Origin: a virus
DNA length: 64,000 nucleotides
Strand: one strand, 5' to 3'
Virus record (IMG/VR): IMGVR_UViG_3300045988_042432
Shown in pieces: positions 752 through 52,829 of this stretch (position 1 is its first letter; each line of letters starts with the position of its first letter). The translations under genes and the position numbers were made by a program. The notes beneath the pieces are model-generated. The model had not been told where the DNA came from. It did no database searches and worked only from the letters and a program-made list of their open reading frames with translations.

Positions 752-782
752 CTAGATTATTAACTATTAAATGTATTTAATT

Positions 783-3786: not shown

Positions 3787-3871
3787 GGCGCAGTGTCGGA
3801 ACTGGTATACGAAACGCACTTAAAATGCGTTGCCCTTTATGGGATTGAGGGTTCGATTCCCTTCTGCGTCA
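3787..3871 (+). tRNA. tRNA-Leu(UAA), class II
   Basis: Acceptor GGCGCAG/CTGCGTC, anticodon stem ACGCA/TGCGT with loop CTTAAAA, long variable arm, T arm GAGGG-TTCGATT-CCCTT. Confidence 0.85.
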
Positions 3872-3958
3872 CAAATGTATCTAAGCTCTGGTGTCCAGAA
3901 ATGGACGTGTGGGTTCGAATCCCACTCAAGCTACTAATAATTAAAGGAAGGAGGATTT

Positions 3959-8474: not shown

Positions 8475-10487
8475 ATGGAATTTGTCAAGTTTAAAAGAGC
8501 AGTCCATGCGCAGTTTAATCAACTAGCTGCTGGTGCAGACATGCTCTTTCTGACTAATGTAGACAAGGACGCATTATGGGATTGTTACCTTAATTCCTTT
8601 CCGGAGGAAGAGAGACAGTCTCATAATTGCAACAATTGTAAACATTATATCAGACATTATGGTAGAGTTGTCGCCATTAAAGACAATAAAGTAGTAACCA
8701 TGTGGGAGAACCTACAGTTGGATGAACCTTATGCTACTGTAGCTAGAAATCTCGATGCATTAGTGAAATCAAAACCAGTTGTAGATGTTTTTATCACTCG
8801 TGATTATGAACTAGGAATTGATAGAAACAATGCCTATATTGACAGTTTGCAAGGTCCTAAAGTAATTACCTGGAATCATCTTTACTATCATATGCCAAAT
8901 CAATTGGTGTATACAGGAACTGAATCCGTATCTGCTGTAATGGGGACTTTACGCACAACTAAGGAAGTGTTCAAACGTGCACTGGAGGAATTAACTATCG
9001 ATTCTATAGAAACAGTTCTGGACTTAATAGGTCAGAATGCTTTATATAGAGGAGAACAGTTTAAAAATGACTTAAGTGTATTCCTGGGTCATAAAAGACA
9101 CTATGATTCATTACCTGATGAAGAGAAAGACAACTGGTGTTGGGCAAACTTCAATCGTGTAGGATGTGCACGCATTCGTAATACGGCAATTGGTACATTG
9201 TTGGTAAATATATCATCAGGACTTGAATTGGACGATTGTGTGACTGCATACGAACGTATCATGGCTCCAGAGAACTATCAAAGACCTAAGTCAATTGTTA
9301 CTAAAAGAATGATTGAGGAAGCACAGAAGAAAGTGCAGGAACTAGGTCTTATGGATTCTCTACCTCGTAGACATGCTGCCTTAGAGGATATAACAGTCAA
9401 CAATGTTATATTCGCTAACCGTGATGCCAAGAAGGTAATGGCCGGAAACATATTCGAGGAACTGGCCGCAGACACTAAAGTTAATCCTAAGAAGTTTGAC
9501 AAGTTAACTGAAATTAGCATTGATGATTTCATTGCTAATGTGGTACCCACTGCCACTAACATAGAAGTGTTAATGGAGAGTAGGCTGTCTAATAACTTAG
9601 TAACTCTTACAGCTCCTGTTAATAAGGATGCTAAGAATCTATTTAAATGGCCAAACAACTTTGCTTGGACATATAATGGAGGAGTAGCTGATTCTATTAA
9701 AGAGAAAGTAAGAGCTGCTGGTGGTCAGACTGAAGGCTTCTTAAGATGTTCATTAGCGTGGTCTAACTATGATGACTTGGATTTGCATGTCGTTGAACCT
9801 AATAATCTTGAAATTTATTACTCCAACAGAATCGGCAGAAGTGGTGGTAAGCTAGACGTGGATGAAAATGCCGGATATGGCAAAACTCGCAAACCCGTTG
9901 AGAACATTATATGGGTTAACGAACGCAAGATGCTTGAAGGTAAGTATGTTGTGTATGTTAATAACTTTCATTGTAGAGAATCTGTTGATACAGGATTTAC
10001 ATTGGAAATAGAACACAATGGAGAAGTCCGACAATTTGTCTATGACAAACCCGTTAAACATAAAGAGAATGTCATGGTTGCCGAGATTACTTACAGTAAA
10101 TCTAAAGGTATCCAAATAAGAGAGCTAATACCCAGTACTAGCCATTCGTCAGTAAGCCTATGGAATATTGATACTAACAAGTTCCATAAGGTGAACGTGA
10201 TGATGCTGTCCCCCAATTATTGGGATGAGCAGGGTATTGGCAATAAACATTACTTCTTTATGTTGGATGATTGCAAGAATCCGGAGCCTGTTCGTGGATT
10301 CTTTAACGAATATCTTAACAGTGAGCTAACTCCTCACCGTAAGGTATTTGAGGTTCTAGCTGATAAGATGAAGACTCCTTACCAAGAACATCAATTGAGT
10401 GGATTAGGGTTCTCATCTACTATGCGTAATTCCGTTATTGTTAAAGTGGACGGAACATTTAGTAGAACTTTAAAAGTCAATTTCTGA
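8475..10487 (+). CDS. large hypothetical protein, N-terminal Cys cluster and C-terminal DUF2135/YfaP-like beta domain
   Basis: HNCNNCKHY near the N-terminus. C-terminal LRCSLAWSNYDDLDLHVVEPNNLEIYYSNR..GGKLDVDENAGYG resembles the YfaP/DUF2135 signature as I remember it. Confidence 0.7.
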   Translation: MEFVKFKRAVHAQFNQLAAGADMLFLTNVDKDALWDCYLNSFPEEERQSHNCNNCKHYIRHYGRVVAIKDNKVVTMWENLQLDEPYATVARNLDALVKSKPVVDVFITRDYELGIDRNNAYIDSLQGPKVITWNHLYYHMPNQLVYTGTESVSAVMGTLRTTKEVFKRALEELTIDSIETVLDLIGQNALYRGEQFKNDLSVFLGHKRHYDSLPDEEKDNWCWANFNRVGCARIRNTAIGTLLVNISSGLELDDCVTAYERIMAPENYQRPKSIVTKRMIEEAQKKVQELGLMDSLPRRHAALEDITVNNVIFANRDAKKVMAGNIFEELAADTKVNPKKFDKLTEISIDDFIANVVPTATNIEVLMESRLSNNLVTLTAPVNKDAKNLFKWPNNFAWTYNGGVADSIKEKVRAAGGQTEGFLRCSLAWSNYDDLDLHVVEPNNLEIYYSNRIGRSGGKLDVDENAGYGKTRKPVENIIWVNERKMLEGKYVVYVNNFHCRESVDTGFTLEIEHNGEVRQFVYDKPVKHKENVMVAEITYSKSKGIQIRELIPSTSHSSVSLWNIDTNKFHKVNVMMLSPNYWDEQGIGNKHYFFMLDDCKNPEPVRGFFNEYLNSELTPHRKVFEVLADKMKTPYQEHQLSGLGFSSTMRNSVIVKVDGTFSRTLKVNF

Positions 10488-11804: not shown

Positions 11805-12065
11805 ATGGACTTTGAGAAAGAAATAAAGAAATGGCAGAAGGTGAACAGCTCTGAAACTAAAGCCCAGCTCTTTGAAGCAGTAGACTACATCTGCGCTGAT
11901 GAGCCTAATGGATTAGTAGGAGTGACTGGTTTGCTATTTGATGCCGATAAACTCAAGAGGAGTATCAATGCTGCGCTTTCCAGGAGAGCGGAAGCCAACG
12001 TGGTTACACGTAGATATGGTTTGCGTCAGCAGGTGCTATACTTGATGTACTATGGCGAAGAGTGA
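11805..12065 (+). CDS. hypothetical protein
   Basis: ATG at 11805 right after the upstream TGA. Confidence 0.6.
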   Translation: MDFEKEIKKWQKVNSSETKAQLFEAVDYICADEPNGLVGVTGLLFDADKLKRSINAALSRRAEANVVTRRYGLRQQVLYLMYYGEE

Positions 12066-12212: not shown

Positions 12213-12284
12213 GGTCCCATAGTTCAATGGATAGAACGCTGGTCTACGGAACCTGAAATGGCAGTTCGACTCTGCCTGGGACTA
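12213..12284 (+). tRNA. tRNA-Arg(ACG)
   Basis: Acceptor GGTCCCA/TGGGACT (G1.U72), D arm GTTC-AATGGATA-GAAC, anticodon loop CTACGGA, T arm GGCAG-TTCGACT-CTGCC. One U.U mismatch in the anticodon stem. Confidence 0.8.
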
Positions 12285-12304
12285 CTAACTTAATAAGGAA
12301 AGAG

Positions 12305-13277: not shown

Positions 13278-13351
13278 GGTCTAGTAGCTCAGTAGAATAG
13301 AGCGTCCCTCTCCTAAAGGGAAGGTCACGAGTTTGAATCTCGTCTGGACCA
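13278..13351 (+). tRNA. tRNA-Arg(CCU)
   Basis: Acceptor GGTCTAG/CTGGACC, D arm GCTC-AGTAGAATA-GAGC, anticodon stem TCCCT/AGGGA with loop CTCCTAA, T arm ACGAG-TTTGAAT-CTCGT. Confidence 0.85.
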
Positions 13352-13371
13352 CAAACCAATTATTAGTTATT

Positions 13372-32797: not shown

Positions 32798-33976
32798 ATG
32801 CTTAATGTCAGAATTATTACTATAATGCCTAAGAAACTTACTACTGAAGAATGGATTAATAAAGCTAGAATTAAACATGGAGATAAATATGATTATTCTA
32901 AATCTGTGTACACTGGAAGTAGAGATAGAATAATCATCACTTGTCCGAAACATGGCGACTTTACAGCTATATCCGGATTGCATATTTCTAGAGGGGATGG
33001 TTGTCCTGAGTGTGCTTCATTAGCTAAAAGTAGCAAGCTTTCATTATCTAATGAAGAATTTATTAACCGTTTACGTGACATGTTTGGGGATAATTATGAT
33101 TACTCTAAAGTCAAATATAATGGCACTAGAGGGTATGTTACCATAGTATGTCCTAAACATGGTGAATTTAAGGCCCGTGTTGGCACTCTATCGAGAGGTG
33201 TAGGATGTCTGAAATGTAAAGAGGAAGAAAGACTTAAAAAGTTTAATGACCTTTACATAAAGAAATTTAAGGAGTACTACCCAGATTTAGATTATAGTAA
33301 AACTGTATATACTGGGTGGGATACTAGAATAGTTATAACATGCCCCAAACACGGTGACTTTGAAGTCCTTCCTAACCACTTTCTTAGGTATAAAGGGTGT
33401 CCAAAATGCTCTGCTGAAAGTCATGCAAAGTATATGCAGAAGTCCTTAGATGACTTTCTAAAGGATGCCAGACGCATTCATGGCACACGTTATGATTATT
33501 CTAGAGTAGAGTACAACGATAGTCATACAAAGGTCTGTATTGTATGCCCTGAACATGGTGAATTTTGGCAGACTCCAAATAGCCATATACAAGGTAGTGG
33601 CTGCCCTAGCTGCTCAAGTTCAAAGGGCGAAGAAGAGGTATGTAACATTTTGTTAAGTAATGGAATTAAATTTATAAGGGAATACACTATCCAAGTGCCT
33701 AATGAGATTAACACCTCTGGACACGCTTATATTGATTTTTACTTACCAGAATATAATACCTTTGTGGAATATAATGGCATTCAACATTATAATCCTAAAA
33801 TGGCATTTGGCGGGTCTTTCAAATTTGAGCGACAACAAGCTCGTGACGAGTATGTTAGGCAATATTGTAAAGACAATAATATCAAATTAATAGAGATTCG
33901 TTATGATGAAGATGTGTGGGAAGTTTTGACCAGAGAACTTCTTGATAATCAAACAACAAACGAAGAATGCAAATAA
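32798..33976 (+). CDS. putative free-standing endonuclease: four Zn-ribbon repeats + PD-(D/E)XK (Vsr/DUF559-like) domain
   Basis: Four copies of ..YDYSK..Y.G....(I/V).CPKHG(D/E)F......GCP.C, then GHAYIDFYLPEYNTFVEYNGIQHY. Confidence 0.6.
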   Translation: MLNVRIITIMPKKLTTEEWINKARIKHGDKYDYSKSVYTGSRDRIIITCPKHGDFTAISGLHISRGDGCPECASLAKSSKLSLSNEEFINRLRDMFGDNYDYSKVKYNGTRGYVTIVCPKHGEFKARVGTLSRGVGCLKCKEEERLKKFNDLYIKKFKEYYPDLDYSKTVYTGWDTRIVITCPKHGDFEVLPNHFLRYKGCPKCSAESHAKYMQKSLDDFLKDARRIHGTRYDYSRVEYNDSHTKVCIVCPEHGEFWQTPNSHIQGSGCPSCSSSKGEEEVCNILLSNGIKFIREYTIQVPNEINTSGHAYIDFYLPEYNTFVEYNGIQHYNPKMAFGGSFKFERQQARDEYVRQYCKDNNIKLIEIRYDEDVWEVLTRELLDNQTTNEECK

Positions 33977-34746
33977 GTATTGACCAACTCATGAATGGTA
34001 AGGCTACTAGAATAGGTAAGAGAGCATATTTACCAACTGCTGCCTATGTAGAGCCTTTTATTGAAAGAATGTCCAAGTTTACTAAAGACTTTATAGTTGA
34101 AGTAGAATTGCCTAAACAGGTTACTAGGACAGTCGATGGAGATGTTAATGCAGATGATATTACATATAATCGTGTATTGATTCAAGCTGTAATGCCAGAG
34201 AGTTGCAGCTTTGACAATCATGATGAAGTTATTGGCATGGTTTATGGATTAGATGTTCGTAAGCCAGTAGCCAAGATTTATAGAGGAGCACTTAACAGAG
34301 CATGTACAAATCTCTGTGTATTTGACCCAGAATTTCTCCAAATGCAGCCGGTTAATCCTGAAGAAGCCTTGAATTATAAAGCTGTAGAGTATTTATTAAG
34401 TCAGACTTCTGATATAAAGCTGATGTTGGAGAATCTTCATAATACTACATGGAAAGCTGAAGACGATTTAGTAAGTTTAAACTTAGGCAAATGGCAAAGA
34501 AATGCTATGCATATGGTTTATAATGTAGGTTATGGAGATGTCAAGATAGGAACAGACCTTGTTACTAAGGCGTATAGTTCTATGTTTGAGGACCCAGATT
34601 CTTCATATTATATTGGAGTGGGTAATGAGGTGGATATGTTTACTGTGTACAATGCATTTACGCAGCTAATTAGTAATGACAAGGGTAAAGATTTGATGAA
34701 TAGAGCAGAGAAGACTCTATTACTAAGAAACATATTAAACTTCTAA
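33967..34746 (+). CDS. hypothetical protein (possibly DUF932-like)
   Basis: 259-aa ORF. Weak resemblance only (GALNRACTNLCVF). Confidence 0.6.
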   Translation: MQISIDQLMNGKATRIGKRAYLPTAAYVEPFIERMSKFTKDFIVEVELPKQVTRTVDGDVNADDITYNRVLIQAVMPESCSFDNHDEVIGMVYGLDVRKPVAKIYRGALNRACTNLCVFDPEFLQMQPVNPEEALNYKAVEYLLSQTSDIKLMLENLHNTTWKAEDDLVSLNLGKWQRNAMHMVYNVGYGDVKIGTDLVTKAYSSMFEDPDSSYYIGVGNEVDMFTVYNAFTQLISNDKGKDLMNRAEKTLLLRNILNF

Positions 34747-34749
34747 TTA

Positions 34750-36363
34750 ATGTTAGTAATTAAGAGAGACAAAAAAGTAGAACCTTTCGACGTTAATAAG
34801 ATTGATGCCGCAATTACTAAGGCATTTAACGCTGTTAACGAACCAATTGATTCTGATATTCTTCAGGATATTAAAGATGAGTTGTATATTAACAACATAG
34901 TTTCAGTTGAGGAGCTTCAAGACCAGTTAGAGAAAGCTCTTATGGCATGTGATTATTATGATGTTGCTAAGGCATTCATCTTGTACAGGCGTAAAAGGGC
35001 AGAGAGCAGGGCTTTAAATGAAAAGAAACAATTCATTAAAGACTATGCTAAAGCCAAGAATGCCGCAACTGGTAGTAAATACGATGCTAATGCTAATGTT
35101 ACCGAGAAGAACATTGTAACCTTAAATGGAGAATTGTTCAAAGGTGATGTTATTAAGGTAAATCGTGCAATTCTTACTGATAAAATCAGAGAGTTATATG
35201 GAGAGGAGCTAGCTAAGGAATATATCCGTATGCTGGAACAACATTTACTTTATAAGCATGATGAAACATCGATTATGCCCTACTGCGTGGCTATCACTAT
35301 GTATCCCTTTCTATTGGAGGGGTTACAGCCAATTGGAGGTTTGTCTGCCAGACCCAAGAACCTGGATTCTTTCTGTGGCATGTTCGTTAATCTGGTATTT
35401 GCGATTAGTTCTCAATTTGCAGGTGCAGTAGCAACTGGAGAGTTTCTAATGTACTTTGATTACTTTGCTCGTAAAGAGTGGGGTGATGATTACTGGAAAC
35501 GTCCAGAGGAAATGGTTGACAAACACAGAAATATTGACAAGACGTTAGAGCAGAAGTTCCAGCAGATTGTATATTCAATCAATCAGCCAGCAGCTGCTCG
35601 TAACTTCCAATCAGTATTCTGGAATATCAGTTATTTTGATAAGAACTACTTTGAAGGTATCTTTGGAGAGTTCTATTTCCCAGACGGTACACAACCTCAA
35701 TGGGAATCTCTTAGTTGGTTGCAGAAGAAATTTGCTAAATGGTTTAATGAGGAACGTACTAAGTGTATTCTTACATTCCCTGTTGAGACCATGGCGCTTC
35801 TAACTAACGGAGAGGATGTTGTTGATGAAGAGTATGCAGACTTTACAGCAGAGATGTATAGCAAAGGACACTCGTTCTTTACTTATATGTCCGATAGTCC
35901 TGATTCCTTATCTTCCTGTTGCAGACTTCGTAATGAGGTTACTGATAATCAATTCAGTTATTCTCTTGGAGCTGGTGGTATTGCTACTGGTAGTAAGTCA
36001 GTAATGACCTTAAATATCAATAGGCTAGTTCAGGATGCAGTTAATAATGGGTATGATATGATTGAGTATTTGCGTGAGAATGTGAAGAAAGTTCATAAGT
36101 TCCAAACAGCATATAATGAATTGCTTAAAGACTATTTAAAAGACGGGTTGCTTACTGTATATACAGCTGGATTCATTGATATGAAGAAGCAGTATTTGAC
36201 TATAGGTGTTAATGGAGTTATTGAGGCTGCGGAGTTCTTAGGAATCCCAGTTAATGATAATCCAACTTATAGAGAGTTTATGCAATCTATCCTTAAAACT
36301 ATCAGTGATGAAAATCGTAAAGCGAGAACTAAGGAGTTAATGTTTAACACAGAATTTGTGCCT
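34750..36363 (+). CDS. nrdD: anaerobic ribonucleoside-triphosphate reductase, exon 1
   Basis: N-terminal ATP-cone (VIKRDKKVEPFDVNKI). The reading frame loses NrdD similarity after ...NTEFVP. The P1 pairing defines the splice site after T36363. Confidence 0.85.
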
Positions 36364-36556
36364 AAAACTTGTGGGCACGTTAAACCCAATCTAATTGACT
36401 TGGAACCACTACGTGAGAATCGTAGGCAACAGGGGGCAAGCGTAATGGCAGCCTGAACGACTAAACGAATGGGACTCTCATTGCTGAGAGTGTGCGATAG
36501 TCTGCACTACATGGTGACATGTAGAGGAAATCTGAAGTGATTTCCCACCTAGTACA

Positions 36557-41380: not shown

Positions 41381-41539
41381 ATGAATTACGAAGAATTTGT
41401 AGAAACCATTGAGAAAGACGCTGAACAGTATGCTAAATCTTGCGTGTGTGATGCAGATGAACATGACGATGCAGTGGAAGCAATTGCCGCAGATTACATC
41501 GAAGGTGCAATGAGGGCTTTTGAAATCTTAAATGGATAA
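41381..41539 (+). CDS. small acidic hypothetical protein (52 aa)
   Basis: ATG at 41381, TAA at 41537-41539. Below the track cutoff. Confidence 0.4.
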   Translation: MNYEEFVETIEKDAEQYAKSCVCDADEHDDAVEAIAADYIEGAMRAFEILNG

Positions 41540-42740
41540 ATTAGTAACTAAAGACAACAAGGGTAAAACTAGAGTAGTCGAGATTAGTTGCGAATGGGAT
41601 GATGCCCAACATGGCTTTGTTATAAGAAGAAAGACTTATCAGTATGGTGGCAAAGTAACTGTGCAGCCAGAGATATGGATATTCCAAGGCAAAGCCAAAA
41701 GGACTGTTGCAGAACAGGCTAAGTTAGAGTACAATTCTCATCTAAAGAAGTATACAGATAAGGGTTATAAGCTACTTCCATCCTCTGTTAACATAGAGGA
41801 TGCGAAGGCAGTTGCAGCATTTGTTGAAGAACACCTAGGTGAGGGTGTTACTGATTCAAATGGATTTAAGAAGCATATGAAAGCCAAGAAGTACGAGGAG
41901 GTAGCTACTAAGGTATTTGATAAAATCAAGTACTGGCTAGGTTCTCGTAAGATAGACGGTGTCAGATGTTCTTTCTATCTAAAGGACGGAGAGATAGTAT
42001 CTGCTAGTCGGGGAGGTGGCGATTATGACGCTTCTACAGTACACCTAAGAACACATCCCAAGATGATAGAGTTATTTAATAAGATGCCAGATTTGGTTCT
42101 CGATGGTGAACTTTACATTCACGGTCGAAGCTTGCAGTATATAAGTGGTACAGCAAGATTAGAATCTGGAGAATCCCGCTGCAATGAATTGGAATATTAC
42201 ATCTATGATACCATGGATGCTAATATGACAGCACAGGAAAGGTGGAATTATATATCTGACGAAATAGCTCCTATACTTGGAATTGTGGATTTTGACCCTA
42301 ATGCTAATTGGAATGAAGATGACCTGAAGGTTAGAATAGTTCCAGAAGAGGAAGTAGTAGGGTGGACTAACATTCAGAAGCTTCATGATAAATATGTCAG
42401 CGAAGGGTTTGAAGGTATAGTTATTAGAGACCCGGACAAACCATATAACTATGGAGGACGTACTAATGCCATGATTAAAGTCAAAATGTATCAAGACGAC
42501 GAGTTTGAGATTGTTGGCTATAGTGACGGATTACGTCCTGAAGATATGGTGTTCATATGTAAGACTCAGGCTGGTAAGGAATTTGAAGCCAAGCCTATGG
42601 GACCTAGAGAACTTAAGTATGAATATCTAGACAGAATGGATGAACTTATCGGTAAAATGGCTACTGTCAAGTATTTCTACTACTCTGACGATGGCAGACC
42701 ATTACAACCAGTACTTAAGTGCATCCGAGACTATGAATAA
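41532..42740 (+). CDS. ATP-dependent DNA ligase
   Basis: Motif I SRKIDGVR, motif IV EGIVIRD, motif V AMIKVK. Confidence 0.85.
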   Translation: MDKLVTKDNKGKTRVVEISCEWDDAQHGFVIRRKTYQYGGKVTVQPEIWIFQGKAKRTVAEQAKLEYNSHLKKYTDKGYKLLPSSVNIEDAKAVAAFVEEHLGEGVTDSNGFKKHMKAKKYEEVATKVFDKIKYWLGSRKIDGVRCSFYLKDGEIVSASRGGGDYDASTVHLRTHPKMIELFNKMPDLVLDGELYIHGRSLQYISGTARLESGESRCNELEYYIYDTMDANMTAQERWNYISDEIAPILGIVDFDPNANWNEDDLKVRIVPEEEVVGWTNIQKLHDKYVSEGFEGIVIRDPDKPYNYGGRTNAMIKVKMYQDDEFEIVGYSDGLRPEDMVFICKTQAGKEFEAKPMGPRELKYEYLDRMDELIGKMATVKYFYYSDDGRPLQPVLKCIRDYE

Positions 42741-45830: not shown

Positions 45831-46091
45831 ATGGATAATCTGTCACTATTAGCAAACCTTCCAAACCATGTTAATGGTAAGCATCTAAATGTGTATAGGT
45901 GGTTAGATGGATGTGGTTGGTCTATTGATGTGGATGGGCATCACTTCGAGAATCATAGTTTTAATCTTTTAGTACATGAAGTTTTAGAATACTTTAGTTG
46001 TTACGAACGTAGCAACGAACGTAGTGGCTATAGTCTAAAAGGAAGCAGAGAGAAGATTATTCAGAAAGTTGAATCAGATTATTTTTATTAA
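45831..46091 (+). CDS. hypothetical protein
   Basis: 86-aa ORF. Confidence 0.6.
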   Translation: MDNLSLLANLPNHVNGKHLNVYRWLDGCGWSIDVDGHHFENHSFNLLVHEVLEYFSCYERSNERSGYSLKGSREKIIQKVESDYFY

Positions 46092-46867
46092 TGGAAGATT
46101 TTAAATTTTATGAAGTAGGCGGTAAGATTAGAGATGAACTCCTAGGTCTTACCAATAAGGATGTTGATTATGTTGCTGTGCCCAGTGAGGAGTTACTGCG
46201 TAATATAGAGGAAGCACAATGTTTGGTGGACGGAATCTATCCAAATACTACTAATGCAGTCTTCACTATGTTAGAAAGCCATTTGAGGGAAGAAGGCTTT
46301 GAAATCTTCTTAGTAACTCCAGATTGCTATACTATACGTGCTAAGTTCCCAGAAGGATACAAGTATCAAGGTGTGGCAGACTTCGTAATGGCTAGAAAGG
46401 AAGTAGGATATGTCCCAGGCACTAGAACTCCCATAGTAGAACCAGGTAACTTGTATGATGATTTATCACGCAGAGATTTCACTATTAATGCTATGGCTAA
46501 AGACCCTGATACTGGAGAAATCATTGACTACTTTTATGGTAAGCATGATATAACGAATGCTTTGATAAGAACTCCCCTCGACCCTGTAACAACATTCGAT
46601 GATGACCCTCTTAGGATACTTAGAGCCATTAGGTTTGCGGTTACTAAGAGATTCACTATATGGCAGGAGACTTGGCAAGCTATGGTGTTCTACGATTATG
46701 ATGCTAAGATGTCAGTAGTGTCAGAGGAGAGAATTAGAGAGGAACTGATTAAGTGTTTTAAATGTAACACTATTAGAACCTTAACATACCTTGACTACCT
46801 TCCAAGACTTAGAGATTATATCTTTACTAAAACTAATCTATGGCTTAAGCCAACTAACGAGAAATAA
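46091..46867 (+). CDS. tRNA nucleotidyltransferase (CCA-adding enzyme family), short form
   Basis: Head-domain motifs YEVGGKIRDELLG..NKDVDYV and RRDFTINAMA. At 258 aa it lacks the usual body/tail domains. Confidence 0.75.
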   Translation: MEDFKFYEVGGKIRDELLGLTNKDVDYVAVPSEELLRNIEEAQCLVDGIYPNTTNAVFTMLESHLREEGFEIFLVTPDCYTIRAKFPEGYKYQGVADFVMARKEVGYVPGTRTPIVEPGNLYDDLSRRDFTINAMAKDPDTGEIIDYFYGKHDITNALIRTPLDPVTTFDDDPLRILRAIRFAVTKRFTIWQETWQAMVFYDYDAKMSVVSEERIREELIKCFKCNTIRTLTYLDYLPRLRDYIFTKTNLWLKPTNEK

Positions 46868-47166: not shown

Positions 47167-47561
47167 GCAGTTATTTATCATTTTACTTAGTGCCTAGGGC
47201 ACATCCGGAGGAGAAGTTACTACTTCAATCATTTAGTAGGTCTAATGAGGTATATCAGAGATTCTCTGACAATCTCAATATAGCATATGCTGGTAATGAG
47301 GAGAAGTATACTAAACTCACTATTAGTGATGTTGAATCAGTAATTCAAGACATTGATGCTGACATTACTAAGGCGGAAACAAGACATACAGAATATGAGA
47401 AATTCTGTTATGGTAATCCCGAATCTATAGAGGAGATAATATCCACTAAAGAGTATATACGAGATTTGCAAAGCACAAGAGATTATATATCGTTCATACG
47501 GGACGTTTTAACTGATTTAGATTATAGTGGATTCAGTGATGTCTTATGTAATATTGATTAA
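47163..47561 (+). CDS. hypothetical protein
   Basis: 132-aa ORF. Confidence 0.6.
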   Translation: MSSYLSFYLVPRAHPEEKLLLQSFSRSNEVYQRFSDNLNIAYAGNEEKYTKLTISDVESVIQDIDADITKAETRHTEYEKFCYGNPESIEEIISTKEYIRDLQSTRDYISFIRDVLTDLDYSGFSDVLCNID

Positions 47562-47746
47562 TGGAAACACTTGATATTCCAGAACATATATCTAATAGGA
47601 AGGATTCTACAACTATAACTATTAGAATATGTAGAAGAGAGATATTACAGTTGTTACAAGATGTAATAACTAACAATAACTTATTTCATTTGAAACGTAA
47701 ATGGAACAAACTAATGATAAAGGAGCCCTCTGCCAGCGAAAGCTAA
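47561..47746 (+). CDS. hypothetical small protein
   Basis: 61-aa ORF. Its 3' end overlaps the extended Pnk frame. Confidence 0.4.
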   Translation: METLDIPEHISNRKDSTTITIRICRREILQLLQDVITNNNLFHLKRKWNKLMIKEPSASES

Positions 47747-48654
47747 TTATATGCAGAGGGCTCCAGTGACAGGGGTCGGGAAAATCTACTTGGGCTAAAC
47801 AATGGTGTCACGAAGACCCGGAGCACAGAGTAAGATTTAACAATGATGATATTCGTAACATGTTAGGTGATTACTGGGTTCCTAATAGGGAGAAGCTAGT
47901 TACTGAAGCTAAAGCTAATATGATAACGTTTGCTTTGATTAAAGGTTACGATGTAGTAGTTGATAATATGAATCTGAATCCCAAAGAGGATGAATGGATT
48001 AGAACTCTATGTGCCAATATAGAGAAGGACAAGGGAATACATGTTGATATAGAGTATAAGGACTTTTGGACTCCTGTTGAAGAATGTATTCGCCGTGATG
48101 CTATGAGACCTAATCCTATTGGAGAGAAGGTTATTAGGCAAACTTGGAGACGTTATAAGGACTTCATAATCCATGAAGAAATTATGACAGCCAAAGCTAA
48201 GTCATTAGTTCAAGATACTAACCTACCAGCAGCAATCATTGTAGATATGGATGCAACTGTATGTTTGAATACTAGTGGCCGTCCCTTCTACGGAGAAGGT
48301 GCAGCTGAAGGTATGCTTACTGATGAGCCTATTACTCCTGTCATTGAGCTTATTAGAAACTTCTGTGATAATTATCCTGCTAAGTTAATAATTCTAACTG
48401 GTAGAGAGGATACTCCTGAAGTTCGTAAAGCTACGGAACAGTGGTTAGAGAACAATTGGTTGCATCCTGACATACTTCTCATGCGTCCTGCTAAGAGCTT
48501 TACTGCTGGTCCTATATGTAAGAAGAAACTGTATGAGGACAATATCAAAGGCAAGTTCTATATACCTTTCGTACTTGAAGACAATTGTAAGTGTGTGGAG
48601 ATGTGGAGAAATGAAGGCTTGATTTGTCTACAACCGAATGAGGGTAAGTTCTAA
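47701..48654 (+). CDS. pnk: polynucleotide 5'-kinase/3'-phosphatase (T4 Pnk-like) interrupted by in-frame TGA at 47767-47769
   Basis: The frame opens at ATG 47701 and reads ...KLIICRGLQ-TGA-QGSGKSTWAKQW.... HAD phosphatase DxDxT (IIVDMDATV) lies downstream. The annotatable uninterrupted ORF is 47860-48654. Confidence 0.7.
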
Positions 48655-50222: not shown

Positions 50223-52357
50223 TATATCTAGTCAGTAATCAAAGGTCACTATTTGAAACTGACGCTTATAAGGAATTATCTCTATCTGATGCTATAGACA
50301 TGATTATGCCACATAGTTGGGTAGAATATGATTCAGAAACTGCTGGTTTAGACCCCTATACAAAACCATTACTGTGTACTCAGTATGGTTTAGGGGAAGA
50401 CCAAATAGTTGTTGACAATGTAACTATTCCAATTGAGAAGCTTAAATGTGTCCTTGAAGACCCTACTAAGACTTTCTTAGGTTGGAATATTGCATTTGAT
50501 TTAAGGTTTCTATATCACCATAAAATAGTTCCTTATAATGTATGGGATGGAATGATTGCTGAGAAGTTACTCTATCTTGGCTATCCTCCCCAGTTTCATA
50601 GTCTTTCTTTAAAAGCAGCAGCTGATAACTATCTTGGTATAGATATTGATAAAACTGTTCGAGGGCAGATTATCACTCAAGGATTAACCATACCAGTGGT
50701 ACAATATGCTGCTGGTGATGTTATGTATCTTACTAAGATTAAAGAGAAGCAAGATGCAGAATTAGAGAAGAAGGAATTAACTAAAGCTGCCGAATTTGAA
50801 ATGAAGTTTACCCCAGTAATTGCCTATATGGAATATTGTGGAGCTAAACTTGACCCAGTAAAATGGAAGCAGAAAATGATTCGAGATAAGGAGGAAGTTA
50901 ATAAAGCAGAAGCTAAGCTTAACGAGTGGGTTGAAAATTATTATAATGAACATAAATCTTCTGAAGGCTATATTAAAGCCTGCACAGAGGAAGTGGACAT
51001 TATGCATGAGAATCAACTATTTGACAAAGTAGGCCCTCATATGGGACAAATAAAGAGGGTTTGTAATCCACAAACTGGGCTAATTCATTATGAATATGAC
51101 AAACCTTTCCCATATGTTACCAAGAATCTACAAGGCGATTTGTTCAGTGGATTTGATGCTTCAGCTAAGTGTAACATTAACTGGTCTAGTAGTCAACAAG
51201 TAGTTCCACTATTTGAAATGTTGGGACTTAATTGTACTACCATTGATGCTAAAACTAAGCAGAAGAAGAAATCTGCTGATATTAAGTTGATAAAGCCACA
51301 AGCACATAAGTGTAGTATAGTTCCTCTTTATGTAGAATATAAGAAGGCTAAAATTCTAGTTGATACCTTTGGACAGAAGTTCATAGATAAAATTAATCCA
51401 GTAAGTGGTAGGATTCATCCAGACTATTTTCAATTAGGAGCTGATACTGGGCGGTTATCCGCTACTAACCCGTCTTTAATGAATTTGCCGCATGACCCAT
51501 TTACTAGGTCGTGTTTCATTTCTGATACTGGGTATAAATGGATTAGTTGTGATTATAAAGGACAGGAGTCTTTCTTAATGGCATCTATTGCCAATGATAA
51601 GGCGATGTTGGAAGAGCTTATCTATGGTAGTGGTGACTTACACAGTCTAACTGCCAGAATAGTATTTACAGACATCCCCGATGACACTCCACTATCTGAA
51701 GTTAAAGCTAAATATAAACCTCTTAGAGATGCTGCTAAAGGGTATGAATTTTGTTTTAATTATGGTGGAGATTGGAACACTTTAATGAAGAATTATGGTC
51801 TTACTAAGGCAAGAGCTCAAGAAGTATATAATAACTATATGTCTGGTTTCTCTGGACTAAAGAGATATCAGGAGTTTAGGAGAGAAGATGTCCTTGATAA
51901 GGGATATATCCTTCTTAATCCTATTACTAAGCATAAGGCATTTATATATGACTGGGACAATCTGTGTAAAATCGACGGTGAACTTGGGTCTCCTGAAGCT
52001 AAGTATATGCTAGGGCGTAGTGGGGACAATTATTATAAAACAAGCTCACAGCATTTGAGAAGAAGGTTATCTGATTCCATGAAGCAATCTATTAACTATC
52101 CGATACAACATGCTGGTTCTATGTGTTTCAAGTTGTCTGCAATTAAGTTCTTCAATTGGCTAAGGAAGAACAATCTGCTATTTATAGTTAAATATTGTGT
52201 TCCCGTACATGATGAACATAATGTTGAAGCACCGGATGATATTGCTGAAGAAGTAGGTAATGTACTAGTTAAATGTATGGAAAGTGGAGGCGAACCATTT
52301 TGTGTACGTGCTCATTTAGGTGCTGATATATCAATTGAAGACCATTGGGTACATTAA
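50219..52357 (+). CDS. family A DNA polymerase with 3'-5' exonuclease domain
   Basis: Exo I YDSETAGL. Pol motif A SCDYKGQESF, motif B RDAAKGYEFCFNYG, motif C VPVHDEH. Confidence 0.9.
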   Translation: MIYLVSNQRSLFETDAYKELSLSDAIDMIMPHSWVEYDSETAGLDPYTKPLLCTQYGLGEDQIVVDNVTIPIEKLKCVLEDPTKTFLGWNIAFDLRFLYHHKIVPYNVWDGMIAEKLLYLGYPPQFHSLSLKAAADNYLGIDIDKTVRGQIITQGLTIPVVQYAAGDVMYLTKIKEKQDAELEKKELTKAAEFEMKFTPVIAYMEYCGAKLDPVKWKQKMIRDKEEVNKAEAKLNEWVENYYNEHKSSEGYIKACTEEVDIMHENQLFDKVGPHMGQIKRVCNPQTGLIHYEYDKPFPYVTKNLQGDLFSGFDASAKCNINWSSSQQVVPLFEMLGLNCTTIDAKTKQKKKSADIKLIKPQAHKCSIVPLYVEYKKAKILVDTFGQKFIDKINPVSGRIHPDYFQLGADTGRLSATNPSLMNLPHDPFTRSCFISDTGYKWISCDYKGQESFLMASIANDKAMLEELIYGSGDLHSLTARIVFTDIPDDTPLSEVKAKYKPLRDAAKGYEFCFNYGGDWNTLMKNYGLTKARAQEVYNNYMSGFSGLKRYQEFRREDVLDKGYILLNPITKHKAFIYDWDNLCKIDGELGSPEAKYMLGRSGDNYYKTSSQHLRRRLSDSMKQSINYPIQHAGSMCFKLSAIKFFNWLRKNNLLFIVKYCVPVHDEHNVEAPDDIAEEVGNVLVKCMESGGEPFCVRAHLGADISIEDHWVH

Positions 52358-52358
52358 T

Positions 52359-52829
52359 ATGATTGAAGTTGAAAGAAAGTATTTAGTGAAAAACAATAGC
52401 TATAAGATGCAGGCTCAAAGAGCAGGATTGATAGTCCAGGGTTATCTTGGAGACAATCCTCTCTCTGAAACTAGGATAGCTATTAGGGACAATCATGGTT
52501 GGCTATTTATTAAAGCTAAGGGAACCCTTAGTCGTTTTGAATGGCAACAAGAAATCCCATTGTATGAAGCACAGGAGCTTCTAAAGTTCTGTCCTAATAT
52601 TATCCGTAAGGTACGCTACATAGTATATCACATGGGTAACAAATGGGAAATTGATGAGTTCTTAGGAGAGAATGAAGGGTTAGTAATTGCCGAGTGTGAG
52701 TTATCACAGGCAACTCTCAACCCTCCTCTGCCTGATTTTGTAGGAGAAGAGGTTACAGAAGATACTAAGTATTATAACTATAACCTCGCGTCTAACCCTT
52801 ATATGAACTGGGACGATGACTCTGAATGA
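52359..52829 (+). CDS. CYTH-domain (triphosphate tunnel metalloenzyme) protein
   Basis: N-terminal MIEVERKYLV is the ExExK CYTH signature. About 156 aa. Confidence 0.65.
   Translation: MIEVERKYLVKNNSYKMQAQRAGLIVQGYLGDNPLSETRIAIRDNHGWLFIKAKGTLSRFEWQQEIPLYEAQELLKFCPNIIRKVRYIVYHMGNKWEIDEFLGENEGLVIAECELSQATLNPPLPDFVGEEVTEDTKYYNYNLASNPYMNWDDDSE

What the first reader, a model, noticed from the sequence alone, without database searches (positions are those of the whole stretch)
47701..47790. In-frame TGA flanked by identical CAG codons inside the Pnk Walker A motif: candidate 6-nt translational hop (or fresh inactivation)
**Seen in sequence.** The Pnk frame opens at ATG 47701 and reads KLIICRGLQ (CAG 47764-47766), TGA (47767-47769), Q (CAG 47770-47772), GSGKSTWAKQW.
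- Readthrough would give GLQxQGSGKS, which breaks the GxxxxGK(S/T) spacing.
- Skipping exactly TGACAG (peptidyl-tRNA-Gln re-pairing from the first to the second CAG) gives RGLQGSGKST, a perfect P-loop as in T4 Pnk (GCPGSGKST).
- No ATG lies between the stop and 47860, so initiating downstream would delete the P-loop.
- TGA is a normal stop elsewhere in the window (for example at 10485-10487 and 12063-12065), so genome-wide recoding is unlikely.

**Established knowledge.** T4 gene 60 bypassing uses matched take-off and landing codons with a stop immediately after take-off. Short hops over a stop between matched codons have been shown in E. coli reporters.

**Alternatives.** A 6-bp insertion pseudogene that leaves only the phosphatase domain, or a sequencing/assembly artefact.
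Basis: partly seen in the sequence, partly recalled or inferred. Interest (0 to 1): 0.7.

Follow-up and report, generated by a model that had tools for sequence, protein, structure and literature searches.

The report
Mobile stop-hop cassette in phage Pnk
The stop codon inside this phage's RNA-repair kinase gene is real and belongs to a conserved, horizontally spreading hairpin-plus-stop element that most likely makes ribosomes skip six bases; if so, it would be the first natural example of a 'stop-hop', so far seen only in synthetic constructs.

Summary
In detail: ATG 47701 ... CAG TGA CAG (47764-47772) ... GSGKST, followed by an intact kinase-phosphatase ORF to 48654.

It is neither an artefact nor a fresh mutation. 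The same 6-nt stop insert occurs in more than 40 independent gut-metagenome and virome contigs. It sits on pnk backbones 57-99% identical in DNA, while most relatives read ICRGIQGSGKST without it.

- its own start codon plus about 7 A-rich codons;
- a perfect 12-bp G+C-rich hairpin (47722-47733 / 47753-47764, -26 kcal/mol) whose last pair uses the first base of the pre-stop codon;
- the stop codon, then one codon that can re-pair with the pre-stop tRNA.

In gut crAss-like phages a LAGLIDADG homing-endonuclease gene lies just upstream. The window keeps only its last 61 codons (47561-47746).

The same architecture recurs in freshwater pnk genes and in small Pnk-like kinases. These use TAA, TAG or TGA, have covarying stems, and one has a 9-nt gap between matched CCG codons.

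Best reading (about 0.6): a programmed +6 hop that restores the P-loop. Main rival (about 0.2): a kinase-dead allele spread by the selfish endonuclease. No experiment exists.

The parts
47561..47746 (+). Remnant (last 61 codons plus TAA) of a LAGLIDADG homing-endonuclease gene, in frame +1 relative to pnk and overlapping the pnk start by 46 nt
   Evidence: It matches residues 215-275 of the 275-aa ORF found upstream of pnk in carriers such as L021. That ORF hits Pfam LAGLIDADG_3 at 4.4e-8 and PHROG 4645 'endonuclease' at 6e-23. The junction with the upstream gene lies at ATGGAAACACTTGA.
47701..47721 (+). Cassette-borne start codon plus 6 A-rich, unstructured codons (MEQTNDK) ahead of the hairpin
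   Evidence: An in-frame start lies 21-27 nt upstream of the 5' arm in every lineage, and this stretch is predicted unpaired. Cassette-less alleles start directly before the beta-1 codons.
47722..47733 (+). 5' arm of the hairpin, GGAGCCCTCTGC
   Evidence: It is perfectly complementary to 47753-47764. Across lineages it is read in two different frames, GAL[CS] or [SR]SPL, so the nucleotide sequence rather than the peptide is conserved.
47734..47752 (+). 19-nt loop encoding the beta-1 residues QRKLII. It contains the mini-hairpin AGC-GAAA-GCT (47735-47744) and the endonuclease stop TAA (47744-47746).
   Evidence: Fold results are. In L079 the mini-hairpin becomes CAAC-GCAA-GTTG through changes that are all synonymous in the pnk frame.
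47753..47764 (+). 3' arm of the hairpin, GCAGAGGGCTCC (codons C-R-G-L plus the first base of the take-off codon)
   Evidence: The hairpin folds at -26 kcal/mol with z = -6.1. Stem pair 2 occurs as G-C, A-U and U-A. L229 has different arms, GAATCCCCCTCA / TGAGGGGGATTC.
47764..47766 (+). Proposed take-off codon CAG (Gln)
   Evidence: It is the last sense codon before the stop. Its first base forms the last base pair of the stem in every lineage.
47767..47769 (+). In-frame stop TGA, followed by C
   Evidence: A stop is present at this position in all 28 distinct variants recovered with a pattern that left these bases free. Other lineages have TAA or TAG here.
47770..47772 (+). Proposed landing codon CAG
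   Evidence: It is identical to the take-off codon in the window. In relatives it is always pairable with the take-off tRNA at codon positions 1-2 by Watson-Crick or G.U pairs.
47773..47790 (+). Walker A codons GSGKST, where decoding would resume
   Evidence: The AAA_33 score is 58.6 bits for the hop product, 49.9 for read-through and 22.2 for a product initiated at 47860.
47754..47781 (+). Patch of silent and conservative differences plus the 6-nt insert relative to the cassette-less allele; inferred to be the disrupted endonuclease target
   Evidence: The window reads TGC AGA GGG CTC CAG TGA CAG GGG TCG GGA. MT835470 reads TGT AGA GGT ATT CAA GGT TCA GGT. Downstream the two are near-identical. 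L136 carries only this roughly 33-nt patch on a native backbone.
47770..48654 (+). Remainder of pnk: AAA_33 kinase domain followed by a HAD_PNKP phosphatase domain, with stop TAA at 48652-48654
   Evidence: Pfam AAA_33 at 6.4e-15 and HAD_PNKP at 8.1e-25 on the hop product. PDB matches are Pnkp1 and T4 Pnk.

Best explanation
The TGA is the core of a conserved recoding cassette grafted onto the 5' end of a polynucleotide kinase-phosphatase gene of a crAss-like gut phage.

Proposed mechanism:
1. Ribosomes start at the cassette's own ATG (47701) and translate through the 12-bp hairpin.
2. They reach CAG 47764 in the P site, with UGA-C in the A site.
3. Termination there is slow. The peptidyl-tRNA-Gln unpairs and the mRNA slips 6 nt.
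4. The slip is biased forward because the 3' arm, as it leaves the ribosome, can re-pair with the waiting 5' arm.
5. The tRNA re-pairs on CAG 47770 and decoding resumes at GGG 47773.
6. The product carries the canonical P-loop RGLQGSGKST.

In the gut lineage the cassette travels with a free-standing LAGLIDADG homing-endonuclease gene immediately upstream, which has decayed to a 61-codon remnant in this window. The 6-nt insert plus the surrounding silent changes most likely make the carrier allele resistant to cleavage at the P-loop-coding DNA. This is the same logic as the gene 60 bypass and its linked mob homing endonuclease in T4.

Shown by the data: the sequence, the hairpin and its covariation, conservation of a stop at this position, spread across divergent backbones, decay of the endonuclease gene while pnk stays intact, and the better fit of the hop product to the kinase family.

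Inferred only: the hop itself, the role of the hairpin, and the cleavage site and immunity.
For: 1. Not private to this window. Ten of the 80 best pnk loci in IMG/VR carry the insert and 70 read ...CRGIQGSGKS. It occurs in 16 virome and 27 metagenome contigs. All 28 distinct variants keep a stop at that position, although the search pattern left those bases free.

2. Horizontal spread. Cassette identity is decoupled from backbone identity. L003 and L005 are 100% identical to the window in the cassette but 82% and 76% in the pnk body. L020 is 87% in the cassette but 99.5% in the body. L136 carries only a roughly 33-nt converted patch.

3. Endonuclease link. A 275-aa ORF with two LAGLIDADG motifs lies upstream in about 21 loci and is truncated to 203, 182, 163, 105, 67, 62 or 21 codons in about 16 others. 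Every carrier with enough sequence keeps an intact downstream ORF of 292-299 aa, or 143 aa in the kinase-only type.

4. Hairpin. It folds at -26 kcal/mol with z = -6, and it is one of only two perfect hairpins of at least 12 bp in the 64-kb window. Stem pair 2 occurs as G-C, A-U and U-A, and one variant has a G.U pair. L229 has a fully different but complementary arm pair. In all lineages the stem ends on base 1 of the pre-stop codon.

5. Deep recurrence. Freshwater pnk genes have CCT TAA CTT. Small AAA_33 kinases have CCG TAG CTA, CCG TAG CTG or CCT TGA TCA. L229 has CCG TAA GTG CCG. So all three stop codons are used, and one case is a 9-nt gap between perfectly matched codons.

6. Landing codons. 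Each can pair with the take-off tRNA at codon positions 1-2 by Watson-Crick or G.U pairs. The third base co-varies in CAA/CGA versus CAG/CGG.

7. Substitution pattern in the gut cassette core (tallied by eye from the alignments). About 15 changes are synonymous and 2 non-synonymous in the pnk frame, on both sides of the stop. The same changes are non-synonymous in the endonuclease frame. The only radically variable codon is the one after the stop: Q, R, L or S.

8. Hairpin and stop co-occur. L257 has a homologous N-terminal extension but neither a hairpin (z = -0.5) nor an insert.

9. Fit to the family. The hop product scores 58.6 bits on AAA_33 against 49.9 for read-through, and it aligns without a gap to solved Pnk structures.

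10. Selection downstream. The ORF after the stop is under purifying selection among carriers that lack the endonuclease gene: pN/pS 0.27-0.36 in the L172 lineage and dN/dS 0.115 for L114 versus L138.

11. No genome-wide recoding.
Against: - There are no protein or reporter data. The hop is inferred from sequence alone.
- Every position-1/2 difference between them is a transition. A decayed tandem duplication plus transition bias could mimic the G.U-compatibility rule; my rough estimate for that is p = 0.02-0.09, not a formal test.
- Recombination is so frequent that an intact pnk on carriers could partly reflect recent arrival of the cassette on healthy alleles.
- In the L172 lineage, purifying selection is significant only for the last 67 codons. 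Over the 49 codons between the stop and the first internal ATG, pN/pS is 0.54 and not significant.
- L136 carries the stop without the 5' arm.
- L255 has a second, uninterrupted paralogue 1.1 kb away, so that carrier copy could be dispensable.
- Synthetic stop-hops in E. coli are inefficient (my recollection of Weiss et al. 1987). The hosts, probably Bacteroidota, make no visible use of Shine-Dalgarno pairing, so a prfB-like stimulatory role for the GAGGG upstream is doubtful.
- In gene 60 homologues the 5' stem-loop is the least conserved element. The role I give the hairpin therefore rests on analogy.
Confidence: 0.6

Rival explanations
1. Kinase-dead allele carried by a selfish element. The 6-nt insert exists only to make the P-loop DNA uncleavable by the linked LAGLIDADG endonuclease. 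It truncates Pnk after 22 residues. The cassette persists through homing drive and recombination, and at most the phosphatase domain is still made from ATG 47860.
For: - There is a stop in the middle of the Walker A motif and no in-frame start before 47860.
- The cassette is clearly mobile and always looks younger than the backbone, so an intact pnk could reflect recent transfer.
- In relatives of T4, pnk is dispensable on many hosts (my own knowledge).
- L255 carries an uninterrupted paralogue.
- Selection on the 49 codons just after the stop is not significant.
Against: - A stop is kept across TGA, TAA and TAG lineages. A neutral insert would drift to sense codons.
- The pre-stop ORF keeps an in-frame start, beta-1 codons that match each lineage's uninterrupted relatives, and mostly synonymous change.
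- The hairpin covaries and keeps its register with the pre-stop codon.
- Carriers without any endonuclease gene (freshwater pnk and the small kinases) and kinase-only carriers still have intact ORFs, so 'phosphatase only' cannot explain their maintenance.
- The endonuclease gene has decayed in about 16 loci, while the adjacent pnk of similar length has decayed in none.
Confidence: 0.22
2. Stop-codon read-through. A near-cognate tRNA reads the stop at low frequency, giving a Pnk with two extra residues in the P-loop (GLQxQGSGKS) that still works, perhaps as a way of keeping expression low.
For: - The stop is usually followed by C, which is a leaky context in E. coli (my own knowledge).
- Both sides of the stop are in the same frame.
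- The read-through product still passes the AAA_33 threshold at 49.9 bits.
Against: - All three stop codons are used, including TAA, and each would need a different near-cognate tRNA.
- None of roughly 150 uninterrupted homologues has a longer P-loop.
- The residue after the stop is unconstrained: Q, R, L or S.
- L229 would gain three residues.
- The hop product scores 8.7 bits higher.
- The hairpin lies 5' of the stop, whereas known read-through stimulators lie 3' (my own knowledge).
Confidence: 0.08
3. Termination followed by re-initiation, or a split protein. The 22-aa peptide is released, the ribosome restarts at or next to the stop, and a kinase lacking beta-1 is made, possibly complemented by the peptide.
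For: - L229 has GTG directly after TAA, and ORF-listing runs a 119-aa ORF from it.
- L173 has CTG after the stop.
- The window has GTG overlapping the TGA, but in the wrong frame.
Against: - Most lineages have no start-like codon in frame after the stop: CAG, CGG, CGA, CTT, CTA or TCA.
- The product would lack the first glycine of the Walker A motif and the beta-1 strand.
- This gives no explanation for why the codon after the stop resembles the one before it.
Confidence: 0.05
4. Genome-wide TGA reassignment, or an assembly or sequencing artefact.
For: Some crAss-like lineages do reassign TGA or TAG (PMC7886860). ENA gene callers translated the TAG of L255 and L256 as Q.
Against: - TGA ends 27 of 77 long ORFs in the window, and there is no suppressor tRNA.
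- The 117-kb relative MT835470 gains almost nothing if TGA is read as sense, and it has no tRNA genes.
- Other genes on L255 have no in-frame TAG.
- The insert is reproduced in more than 25 separate assemblies.
Confidence: 0.02

Closest known systems
T4 gene 60 translational bypass with its linked mob-family homing endonuclease
   Same: - A non-coding insert sits in a highly conserved motif of a phage enzyme gene.
- A stop codon lies immediately 3' of the take-off codon, and the take-off and landing codons match or are wobble-compatible.
- There is mRNA structure 5' of the take-off site.
- It is linked to a homing-endonuclease gene that often decays while the insert persists.
- The insert is thought to protect the carrier allele from cleavage.
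   Different: - The gap is 6 nt (9 in one lineage), not 50.
- There is no stem-loop containing the take-off codon and stop, and no room for an internal Shine-Dalgarno sequence.
- The nascent chain is only 22 residues long.
- The conserved element here is the 5' hairpin, which is the least conserved element in gene 60 homologues.
- The endonuclease is LAGLIDADG rather than mob-type (HNH, from my own knowledge).
- The host gene is pnk rather than a topoisomerase gene, and it is not split into two ORFs with added tails.
- There is no sequence homology.
[quoted passage not shown]
   Same: The sequence logic is exactly that of the window: CAG UGA CAG would yield a single Gln.
   Different: Those were engineered, low-efficiency events with no dedicated stimulator. 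The 2016 review states that no natural occurrences are known (PMC5009743). Here the arrangement is natural, conserved, mobile and accompanied by a covarying hairpin.
'byp' elements in Magnusiomyces capitatus mitochondria
   Same: They are short, G+C-rich, mobile inserts in protein-coding genes that are bypassed during translation. Their take-off and landing pairs tolerate wobble and larger deviations.
   Different: byps are 27-55 nt long (my own knowledge), mitochondrial and scattered over many genes. This cassette is 6-9 nt long, phage-borne, confined to one position of one motif, and has its structure outside the gap.
Free-standing homing endonucleases and intronless homing (T4 seg and mob genes)
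   Same: - The endonuclease gene sits beside a conserved target gene.
- It shows presence/absence polymorphism among close relatives.
- Flanking markers are co-converted.
- The carrier allele differs at the presumed target.
- The endonuclease gene decays after fixation.
   Different: LAGLIDADG enzymes are usually encoded in introns or inteins. Here the protecting polymorphism contains a stop codon, and the gene overlaps the target gene's relocated start.
prfB (RF2) programmed +1 frameshift site
   Same: The local layout is similar: a G-rich element (AGAGGG), 3 nt, the P-site codon, then UGA C. The prfB site, as I recall it, is AGGGGG UAU CUU UGA C. L229 has AGGGGG AUU CCG UAA G.
   Different: Both sides of the stop are in the same frame, so a +1 shift gives nonsense. 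The genes in the window show no Shine-Dalgarno usage. The G-rich element is also explained by the Arg-Gly codons and the hairpin.

Membership tests
Programmed translational bypassing (gene 60 type) | Take-off and landing codons decodable by the same tRNA | tested here: met
   In the window both are CAG. In relatives the pairs are CAG/CGG, CAA/CGA, CCU/CUU, CCG/CUA, CCG/CUG, CCU/UCA and CCG...CCG. All can pair at codon positions 1-2 by Watson-Crick or G.U pairs. Caveat: transition bias could produce part of this pattern.
Programmed translational bypassing (gene 60 type) | Slow-to-decode A-site codon (a stop) immediately 3' of the take-off codon | tested here: met
   TGA, TAA or TAG is present in all 28 gut and freshwater variants and in the small-kinase lineages.
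Programmed translational bypassing (gene 60 type) | Take-off stem-loop formed by the take-off codon, the stop and the 5' part of the gap | tested here: not met
   The gap is only 6 nt. Folds show no conserved structure that includes the stop.
Programmed translational bypassing (gene 60 type) | mRNA pairing 5' of the take-off site that can re-form behind the ribosome | tested here: met
   A 10-12-bp hairpin ends on base 1 of the take-off codon and covaries. Whether it has this function was not tested.
Programmed translational bypassing (gene 60 type) | Nascent-peptide signal, and a single polypeptide made from two ORFs | not testable with these tools
   This needs mass spectrometry or reporter assays.
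Programmed translational bypassing (gene 60 type) | Homology to the gene 60 / mob-endonuclease cassette | tested here: not met
   The host gene is different (AAA_33 / HAD_PNKP) and the endonuclease is LAGLIDADG. There is no Rfam match.
Stop-hop (+6) as defined with synthetic constructs | Matched codons flank one stop codon, in frame, so that 9 nt would encode one residue | tested here: met
   CAG TGA CAG at 47764-47772.
Stop-hop (+6) as defined with synthetic constructs | The product lacks two residues relative to read-through | not testable with these tools
   Only indirect evidence is available: the hop product fits AAA_33 and the solved structures best.
Free-standing homing-endonuclease cassette (intronless homing) | Endonuclease ORF adjacent to a conserved target gene, present in some close relatives and absent in others | tested here: met
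   A 275-aa LAGLIDADG ORF lies upstream in about 21 carriers, is absent in 70 of 80 pnk loci, and is a remnant in the window.
Free-standing homing-endonuclease cassette (intronless homing) | Co-conversion of flanking sequence, with the cassette younger than the backbone | tested here: met
   Identity in the cassette is decoupled from identity in the pnk body. L136 carries a short converted patch.
Free-standing homing-endonuclease cassette (intronless homing) | The enzyme cleaves the cassette-less allele and not the carrier allele | not testable with these tools
   This is inferred from the 6-nt insert plus 7 clustered substitutions (6 silent, one Ile to Leu) at 47754-47781.
Stop-codon reassignment (code 4, 15 or 25 phages) | Many genes interrupted by the same in-frame stop, together with a suppressor tRNA | tested here: not met
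T4-type polynucleotide kinase-phosphatase | N-terminal P-loop kinase (GxxxxGK[ST]) plus a C-terminal HAD phosphatase | tested here: met
   The feature is met only after removing the 6 nt: AAA_33 at 6.4e-15, HAD_PNKP at 8.1e-25, Pnkp1 (4xrp) at 3.8e-31 and T4 Pnk (1ltq) at 1.6e-14.
Pseudogene | Further disabling lesions and relaxed constraint | tested here: not met
   No additional stops or frameshifts occur in about 31 complete carrier genes. Change in the cassette core is mostly synonymous. pN/pS is 0.12-0.36 downstream, but not significant for the 49 codons next to the stop.

The most novel reading that the evidence does not exclude
This is a natural family of programmed 'stop-hop' elements. 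A 6-9-nt stop-containing insert sits at one fixed position of the Walker A motif of phage RNA-repair kinases. Peptidyl-tRNA re-pairing skips it, driven by a conserved hairpin that re-folds behind the ribosome. The element spreads between phage genomes, in gut crAss-like phages together with a LAGLIDADG homing endonuclease. It would be the first natural stop-hop, the shortest programmed bypass, and a second independent case of bypassing that evolved as the price of homing-endonuclease immunity.
Probability: 0.55. Interest if true: 0.9.

Novelty: new variant of a known kind. Interest (0 to 1): 0.82.

Why it matters
Programmed bypassing has essentially two natural paradigms: T4 gene 60 and its homologues, and the yeast mitochondrial byps. 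The main review of the field states that in-frame stop-hopping is known only from synthetic constructs and that no natural occurrences are known (PMC5009743).

This cassette would supply a minimal natural system: 6 nt, one hairpin and a 22-residue nascent chain. It comes with ready-made natural variants:
- three different stop codons;
- seven different take-off/landing pairs;
- a 9-nt gap version;
- a relative lacking both the hairpin and the stop;
- a stop-only recombinant.

These variants make two questions directly testable with small reporters. One is what drives forward mRNA slippage. The other is how strictly the landing codon must pair with the retained tRNA.

It also matters for annotation. 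Gene callers currently truncate these kinases, or translate the stop with an alternative code (P0001 and P0002). Such loci could be mistaken for evidence of stop-codon reassignment in gut phages.

Finally, it shows a homing endonuclease targeting P-loop-coding DNA in the most abundant human gut phage group. The cost to the host gene may be paid at the level of translation rather than by an intron or intein.

Tried and rejected
- Genome-wide TGA recoding: rejected from stop-codon usage, the absence of a suppressor tRNA, and no gain in ORF length on the 117-kb relative.
- Known RNA families (ribozymes, introns, riboswitches) at 47400-48000 and on L092 and L131: nothing near threshold.
- A +1 or -1 frameshift at the site: the other frames give no P-loop and terminate within 15 codons (read).
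- A gene-60-like long bypass from GGA 47722 to GGA 47779: it would delete the beta-1 strand, so rejected.
- Intein or group I intron reading of the upstream endonuclease gene: rejected, because the N-terminal exon-like codons (KLIICRGLQ) lie directly next to the stop.
- Shine-Dalgarno-driven slippage as in prfB: the layout is similar, but only 5 of 77 genes in the window have an SD-like motif, which is below background. I keep it only as a resemblance.
- Broad pattern scans for further lineages. The genome-contig scan returned only chance matches in G+C-rich bacteria, plus the same phage binned in a 'Clostridium' MAG. The relaxed viral scan added nothing beyond known carriers.
- Ungapped pN/pS across all gut carriers (median 0.58): not meaningful, because the backbones differ by indels. 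Discarded.
- PDB search with the endonuclease: no hit.
- MAFFT misaligned the freshwater 5' arm. I re-aligned from the start of the arm. The G-C to C-G flip at stem pair 11 in L114 therefore rests on reading the sequence, not.
Full report
**1.
The frame that opens at ATG 47701 reads MEQTNDKGALCQRKLIICRGLQ, then TGA (47767-47769), then QGSGKSTWAKQW... It stays open to TAA 48652-48654. CAG codons flank the stop, and no ATG, GTG or TTG lies in frame before ATG 47860. TGA terminates 27 of 77 long ORFs in the window, and none of the five tRNA genes is a suppressor. With the 6 nt removed, the protein is a T4-type polynucleotide kinase-phosphatase: AAA_33 at 6.4e-15 and HAD_PNKP at 8.1e-25. It also matches Pnkp1 (PDB 4xrp) at 3.8e-31 and T4 Pnk (1ltq) at 1.6e-14. 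The P-loop of the 4xrp alignment has no gap.

**2. It is not private, fresh or an artefact.**
- The phage is crAss-like: its DNA polymerase is 47% identical to that of phage cr111_1.
- Its nearest GenBank relative, MT835470, is near-identical downstream of about 47790 but reads ...TGT AGA GGT ATT CAA GGT TCA GGT AAA, without the 6 nt.
- Of the 80 best pnk loci in IMG/VR, 70 lack the insert and 10 carry it. The carriers sit on Pnk proteins 60-99% identical to the window's.
- Searches with patterns that left the bases around the stop unspecified found 16 virome and 27 metagenome contigs from many separate assemblies. All 28 distinct variants keep an in-frame stop at that position.

**3.
- *Hairpin.* Upstream of the stop lies a perfect 12-bp inverted repeat, GGAGCCCTCTGC (47722-47733) and GCAGAGGGCTCC (47753-47764), around a 19-nt loop. 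It folds at -26 kcal/mol with z = -6.1. It is one of only two such hairpins in the 64-kb window.
- *Register.* The 3' arm is made of the conserved Cys-Arg-Gly-Leu codons. Its last base is the first base of the pre-stop CAG. The 5' arm lies in a 13-residue N-terminal extension that cassette-less alleles do not have.
- *Endonuclease remnant.* The small ORF at 47561-47746 overlaps the pnk start in another frame. It is the last 61 codons of a 275-aa protein that is full-length upstream of pnk in many carriers.
- *Endonuclease identity.* That protein has a zinc ribbon and two LAGLIDADG motifs: Pfam LAGLIDADG_3 at 4.4e-8 and PHROG 4645 'endonuclease' at 6e-23.
- *Silent changes.* Around the insert the window differs from MT835470 by a cluster of silent changes (TGC, GGG, CAG, GGG, TCG, GGA) plus one conservative Ile-to-Leu change (CTC for ATT). 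Further downstream the two are almost identical.

**4. The cassette moves.**
- Identity to the window in the 190-nt cassette is uncoupled from identity in the 850-nt pnk body. L003 and L005 are 100% in the cassette but 82% and 76% in the body. L020 is 87% in the cassette but 99.5% in the body.
- L136 is a native allele (METRKIIICRG...) in which only a roughly 33-nt patch containing the stop has been converted. This places the recombination-initiating event, presumably the endonuclease cut, in the P-loop-coding DNA.
- The endonuclease gene is full-length in about 21 loci and truncated in about 16, with at least 7 different forms.
- Every carrier with enough sequence has an uninterrupted ORF of 292-299 aa after the stop. 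In the L092 type this is a 143-aa kinase-only gene.
- This is the usual life cycle of a homing element. It parallels the T4 mob-endonuclease/gene 60 cassette, where the endonuclease decays and the bypass stays.

**5. The architecture is older and wider than the gut lineage.** The same layout occurs in the lineages below. The layout is a start codon, 7-9 A-rich unstructured codons, a 10-12-bp G+C-rich stem whose 3' arm is the Arg-Gly-Leu/Ile codons and ends on base 1 of the pre-stop codon, a stop, and one codon before G(S/A)GK(S/T).

| Lineage | Loci | Sequence at the stop | Notes |
|---|---|---|---|
| Freshwater pnk | L114, L119, L138 | CCT TAA CTT | next to a T4-type RNA ligase; relatives L139 and L140 read RGLPGSGKST and RGLPASGKTT |
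| Divergent gut pnk | L100 | CAG TGA CAG | |
| Small AAA_33 kinase (~140 aa) | L172, L255, L256 | CCG TAG CTA | next to an RNA ligase |
| Small AAA_33 kinase | L173 | CCG TAG CTG | |
| Small AAA_33 kinase | L174 | CCT TGA TCA | |
| Small AAA_33 kinase | L229 | CCG TAA GTG CCG GGG | found by protein homology alone; arms GAATCCCCCTCA / TGAGGGGGATTC; 9-nt gap between perfectly matched codons |

Further points from these lineages:
- Seventy-seven of 80 small-kinase loci read RG[LIVC]PGSGK without any insert.
- L257 shares L229's type of N-terminal extension but has neither the hairpin (z = -0.5) nor the insert, so the two features co-occur.
- None of these non-gut carriers has an adjacent endonuclease gene.

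**6. Evidence that the element is functional RNA and coding sequence rather than debris.**
- *Stem covariation.* Stem pair 2 occurs as G-C, A-U and U-A. One variant has a G.U pair and one singleton has a mismatch. The loop mini-hairpin AGC-GAAA-GCU becomes CAAC-GCAA-GUUG in L079. By direct reading, L114 also flips pair 11 from G-C to C-G.
- *Two frames.* The 5' arm is translated in two different frames in different lineages (GAL[CS] or [SR]SPL), yet the ORF from the start codon to the stop is always open.
- *Substitution pattern.* This is a tally by eye from the alignments. In the gut cassette core about 15 substitution events are synonymous in the pnk frame and 2 are not (one Ile to Met, one singleton). 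This holds on both sides of the stop. The same changes are non-synonymous in the overlapping endonuclease frame. The one codon that changes radically is the codon after the stop: Q, R, L or S.
- *Stop-ness.* All three stop codons occur, so what is conserved is the presence of a stop.
- *Landing codon.* The codon after the stop can always pair with the pre-stop tRNA at codon positions 1 and 2. For Gln (anticodon NUG) the codons are CAG, CGG and CGA. For Pro (anticodon NGG) they are CUU, CUA, CUG and UCA. L229 has an exact CCG. The third base co-varies in CAA/CGA versus CAG/CGG.
- *Fit to the family.* The hop product scores 58.6 bits on AAA_33. Read-through scores 49.9, the post-stop part alone 47.8, and a product initiated at 47860 scores 22.2, which is below threshold.
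- *Selection downstream.* Among carriers without an endonuclease gene, the downstream ORF is under purifying selection: pN/pS 0.27-0.36 in the L172 lineage and dN/dS 0.115 for L114 versus L138.

**7. Caveats.**
- All differences between take-off and landing codons at positions 1-2 are transitions. A decayed tandem duplication plus transition bias could therefore mimic the pairing rule. My rough estimate for that is p = 0.02-0.09, rather than the roughly 1e-3 a naive null would give.
- Recombination is so frequent that the integrity of pnk on carriers partly reflects recent transfer.
- In the L172 lineage the 49 codons between the stop and the first internal ATG give pN/pS 0.54, which is not significant. 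Only the last 67 codons are clearly constrained.
- L136 has the stop without the 5' arm.
- L255 has a second, uninterrupted paralogue.
- The window's genes show no Shine-Dalgarno usage. The prfB-like layout (AGAGGG, 3 nt, P-site codon, UGA C) is therefore probably incidental to the Arg-Gly codons and the stem.
- Nothing here shows the protein.

**8. Mechanism proposed.**
Ribosomes initiate at the cassette's start codon, upstream of the stem. This explains why both the gut and the non-gut lineages moved the start: a native start inside the loop would be occluded by the stem. The ribosomes melt the stem and arrive with the Gln or Pro codon in the P site and a stop in the A site.

Termination there is slow. 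This is my own knowledge, not tested here: a C after the stop is a weak context in E. coli, and a C-terminal Pro slows release.

The 3' arm is then inside the ribosome, while the 5' arm and loop are already outside. A 6-nt forward slip lets the first half of the 3' arm emerge and pair, which favours forward movement and opposes backward movement. This matches the role proposed for pairing of exiting mRNA in gene 60 (preprint 10.1101/2024.12.09.627546). The retained peptidyl-tRNA re-pairs with the next codon and decoding resumes at the Gly codon.

In the gut lineage, the insert and silent changes would at the same time make the carrier DNA uncleavable by the linked endonuclease.

**9. Comparison and novelty.**
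The closest known systems are:
- the gene 60 / mob-endonuclease cassette;
- synthetic stop-hops;
- the mitochondrial byps;
- intronless homing by free-standing endonucleases.

This element is not a member of the gene 60 family. It has no homology to it, no take-off stem-loop and no internal Shine-Dalgarno sequence, and its gap is 6 nt. It plausibly works like a minimal version of gene 60.

The 2016 review by Atkins and colleagues says of in-frame stop-hopping that 'no occurences are known' in nature (PMC5009743). My literature searches found no description of this cassette. Yutin et al. (2021) mention LAGLIDADG only as an intron-encoded endonuclease in the legend of their figure on the transcription gene block, and do not mention pnk. 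I therefore rate it a new variant of a known kind.

**10. Verdict.**

| Reading | Probability |
|---|---|
| Programmed +6 hop | about 0.6 |
| Kinase-dead hitch-hiker | about 0.2 |
| Read-through | about 0.08 |
| Re-initiation | about 0.05 |
| Artefact or genome-wide recoding | about 0.02 |

Interest is 0.82. The finding is surprising to a recoding specialist, it comes with natural mutants, and small reporters plus mass spectrometry can test it.

Noticed in passing
window 4255-4266 / 4294-4305: This is the only other perfect 12-bp hairpin-type inverted repeat in the window: GTTCACCCAATG, 27 nt, CATTGGGTGAAC. It lies inside ORF 4137-4628, which has no Pfam hit. No stop follows it.
   Followed up: partly
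window 41532-42740, 46091-46867, 47701-48654: There is a nucleic-acid repair neighbourhood: an ATP-dependent ligase (DNA_ligase_A_M / RNA_ligase), a CCA-adding or poly(A)-polymerase-type nucleotidyltransferase, and Pnk. A CYTH-domain protein lies at 52320-52829.
   Followed up: partly
window 670-752, 2470-2544, 3787-3872, 12213-12285, 13278-13352: Five tRNA genes are present: Leu-TAG, Met-CAT, Leu-TAA, Arg-ACG and Arg-CCT. The 117-kb relative MT835470 has none, so it lacks this part of the genome.
   Followed up: no
L092, L110, L131 (IMGVR_UViG_3300045988_109388; OKSD01000016): In these gut carriers pnk is a kinase-only gene of about 165 aa, followed by unrelated ORFs and with no phosphatase domain. 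It has a full-length endonuclease gene upstream. No intron-like RNA family was found there.
   Followed up: partly
L075 (IMGVR_UViG_3300045988_062800), P-loop region: This cassette-less pnk allele has a 1-nt deletion exactly at the presumed target (ATACAAGGC becomes ATACAGGC), which frameshifts the gene. It could be an assembly error or an escape mutation at the endonuclease site.
   Followed up: no
L020/L105 and L070/L098 (IMGVR_UViG_3300045988_069849, 270 kb): One contig holds two cassette-bearing pnk genes about 190 kb apart (coordinates ~65-71 kb and ~256-262 kb) that are 99% and 64% identical to the window's Pnk. It is probably two related phage genomes joined in assembly.
   Followed up: no
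L255 1422-1841 and 2950-3333: The phage carrying the TAG cassette in one small AAA_33 kinase also encodes a second, uninterrupted paralogue (MKYLILLRGLPGSGKST...) 1.1 kb downstream.
   Followed up: partly
P0001 / P0002 (ENA ERZ28593699, ERZ19400388): Public gene calls translate the cassette's TAG as Gln (RGLPQLGAGKST), although the neighbouring genes have no in-frame TAG. Such calls could be misread as evidence of code-15 recoding.
   Followed up: yes
L166 (CALEBD010000406.1): A 153-kb contig of this phage group is deposited inside a MAG labelled 'uncultured Clostridium sp.'. This is probably a binning artefact rather than host evidence.
   Followed up: no
L137 (ERZ779983 NODE-208, 1.6x coverage): This carrier has an in-frame 3-nt deletion that removes the Trp of KQWCHE just after the P-loop. 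Coverage is low, so it may be an error.
   Followed up: no
window 33967-34746 and 34750-36456: Two long ORFs (259 and 568 aa) lie in the same frame, separated by a single TAA, with an ATG directly after it. They are most likely just adjacent genes; I did not examine them.
   Followed up: no
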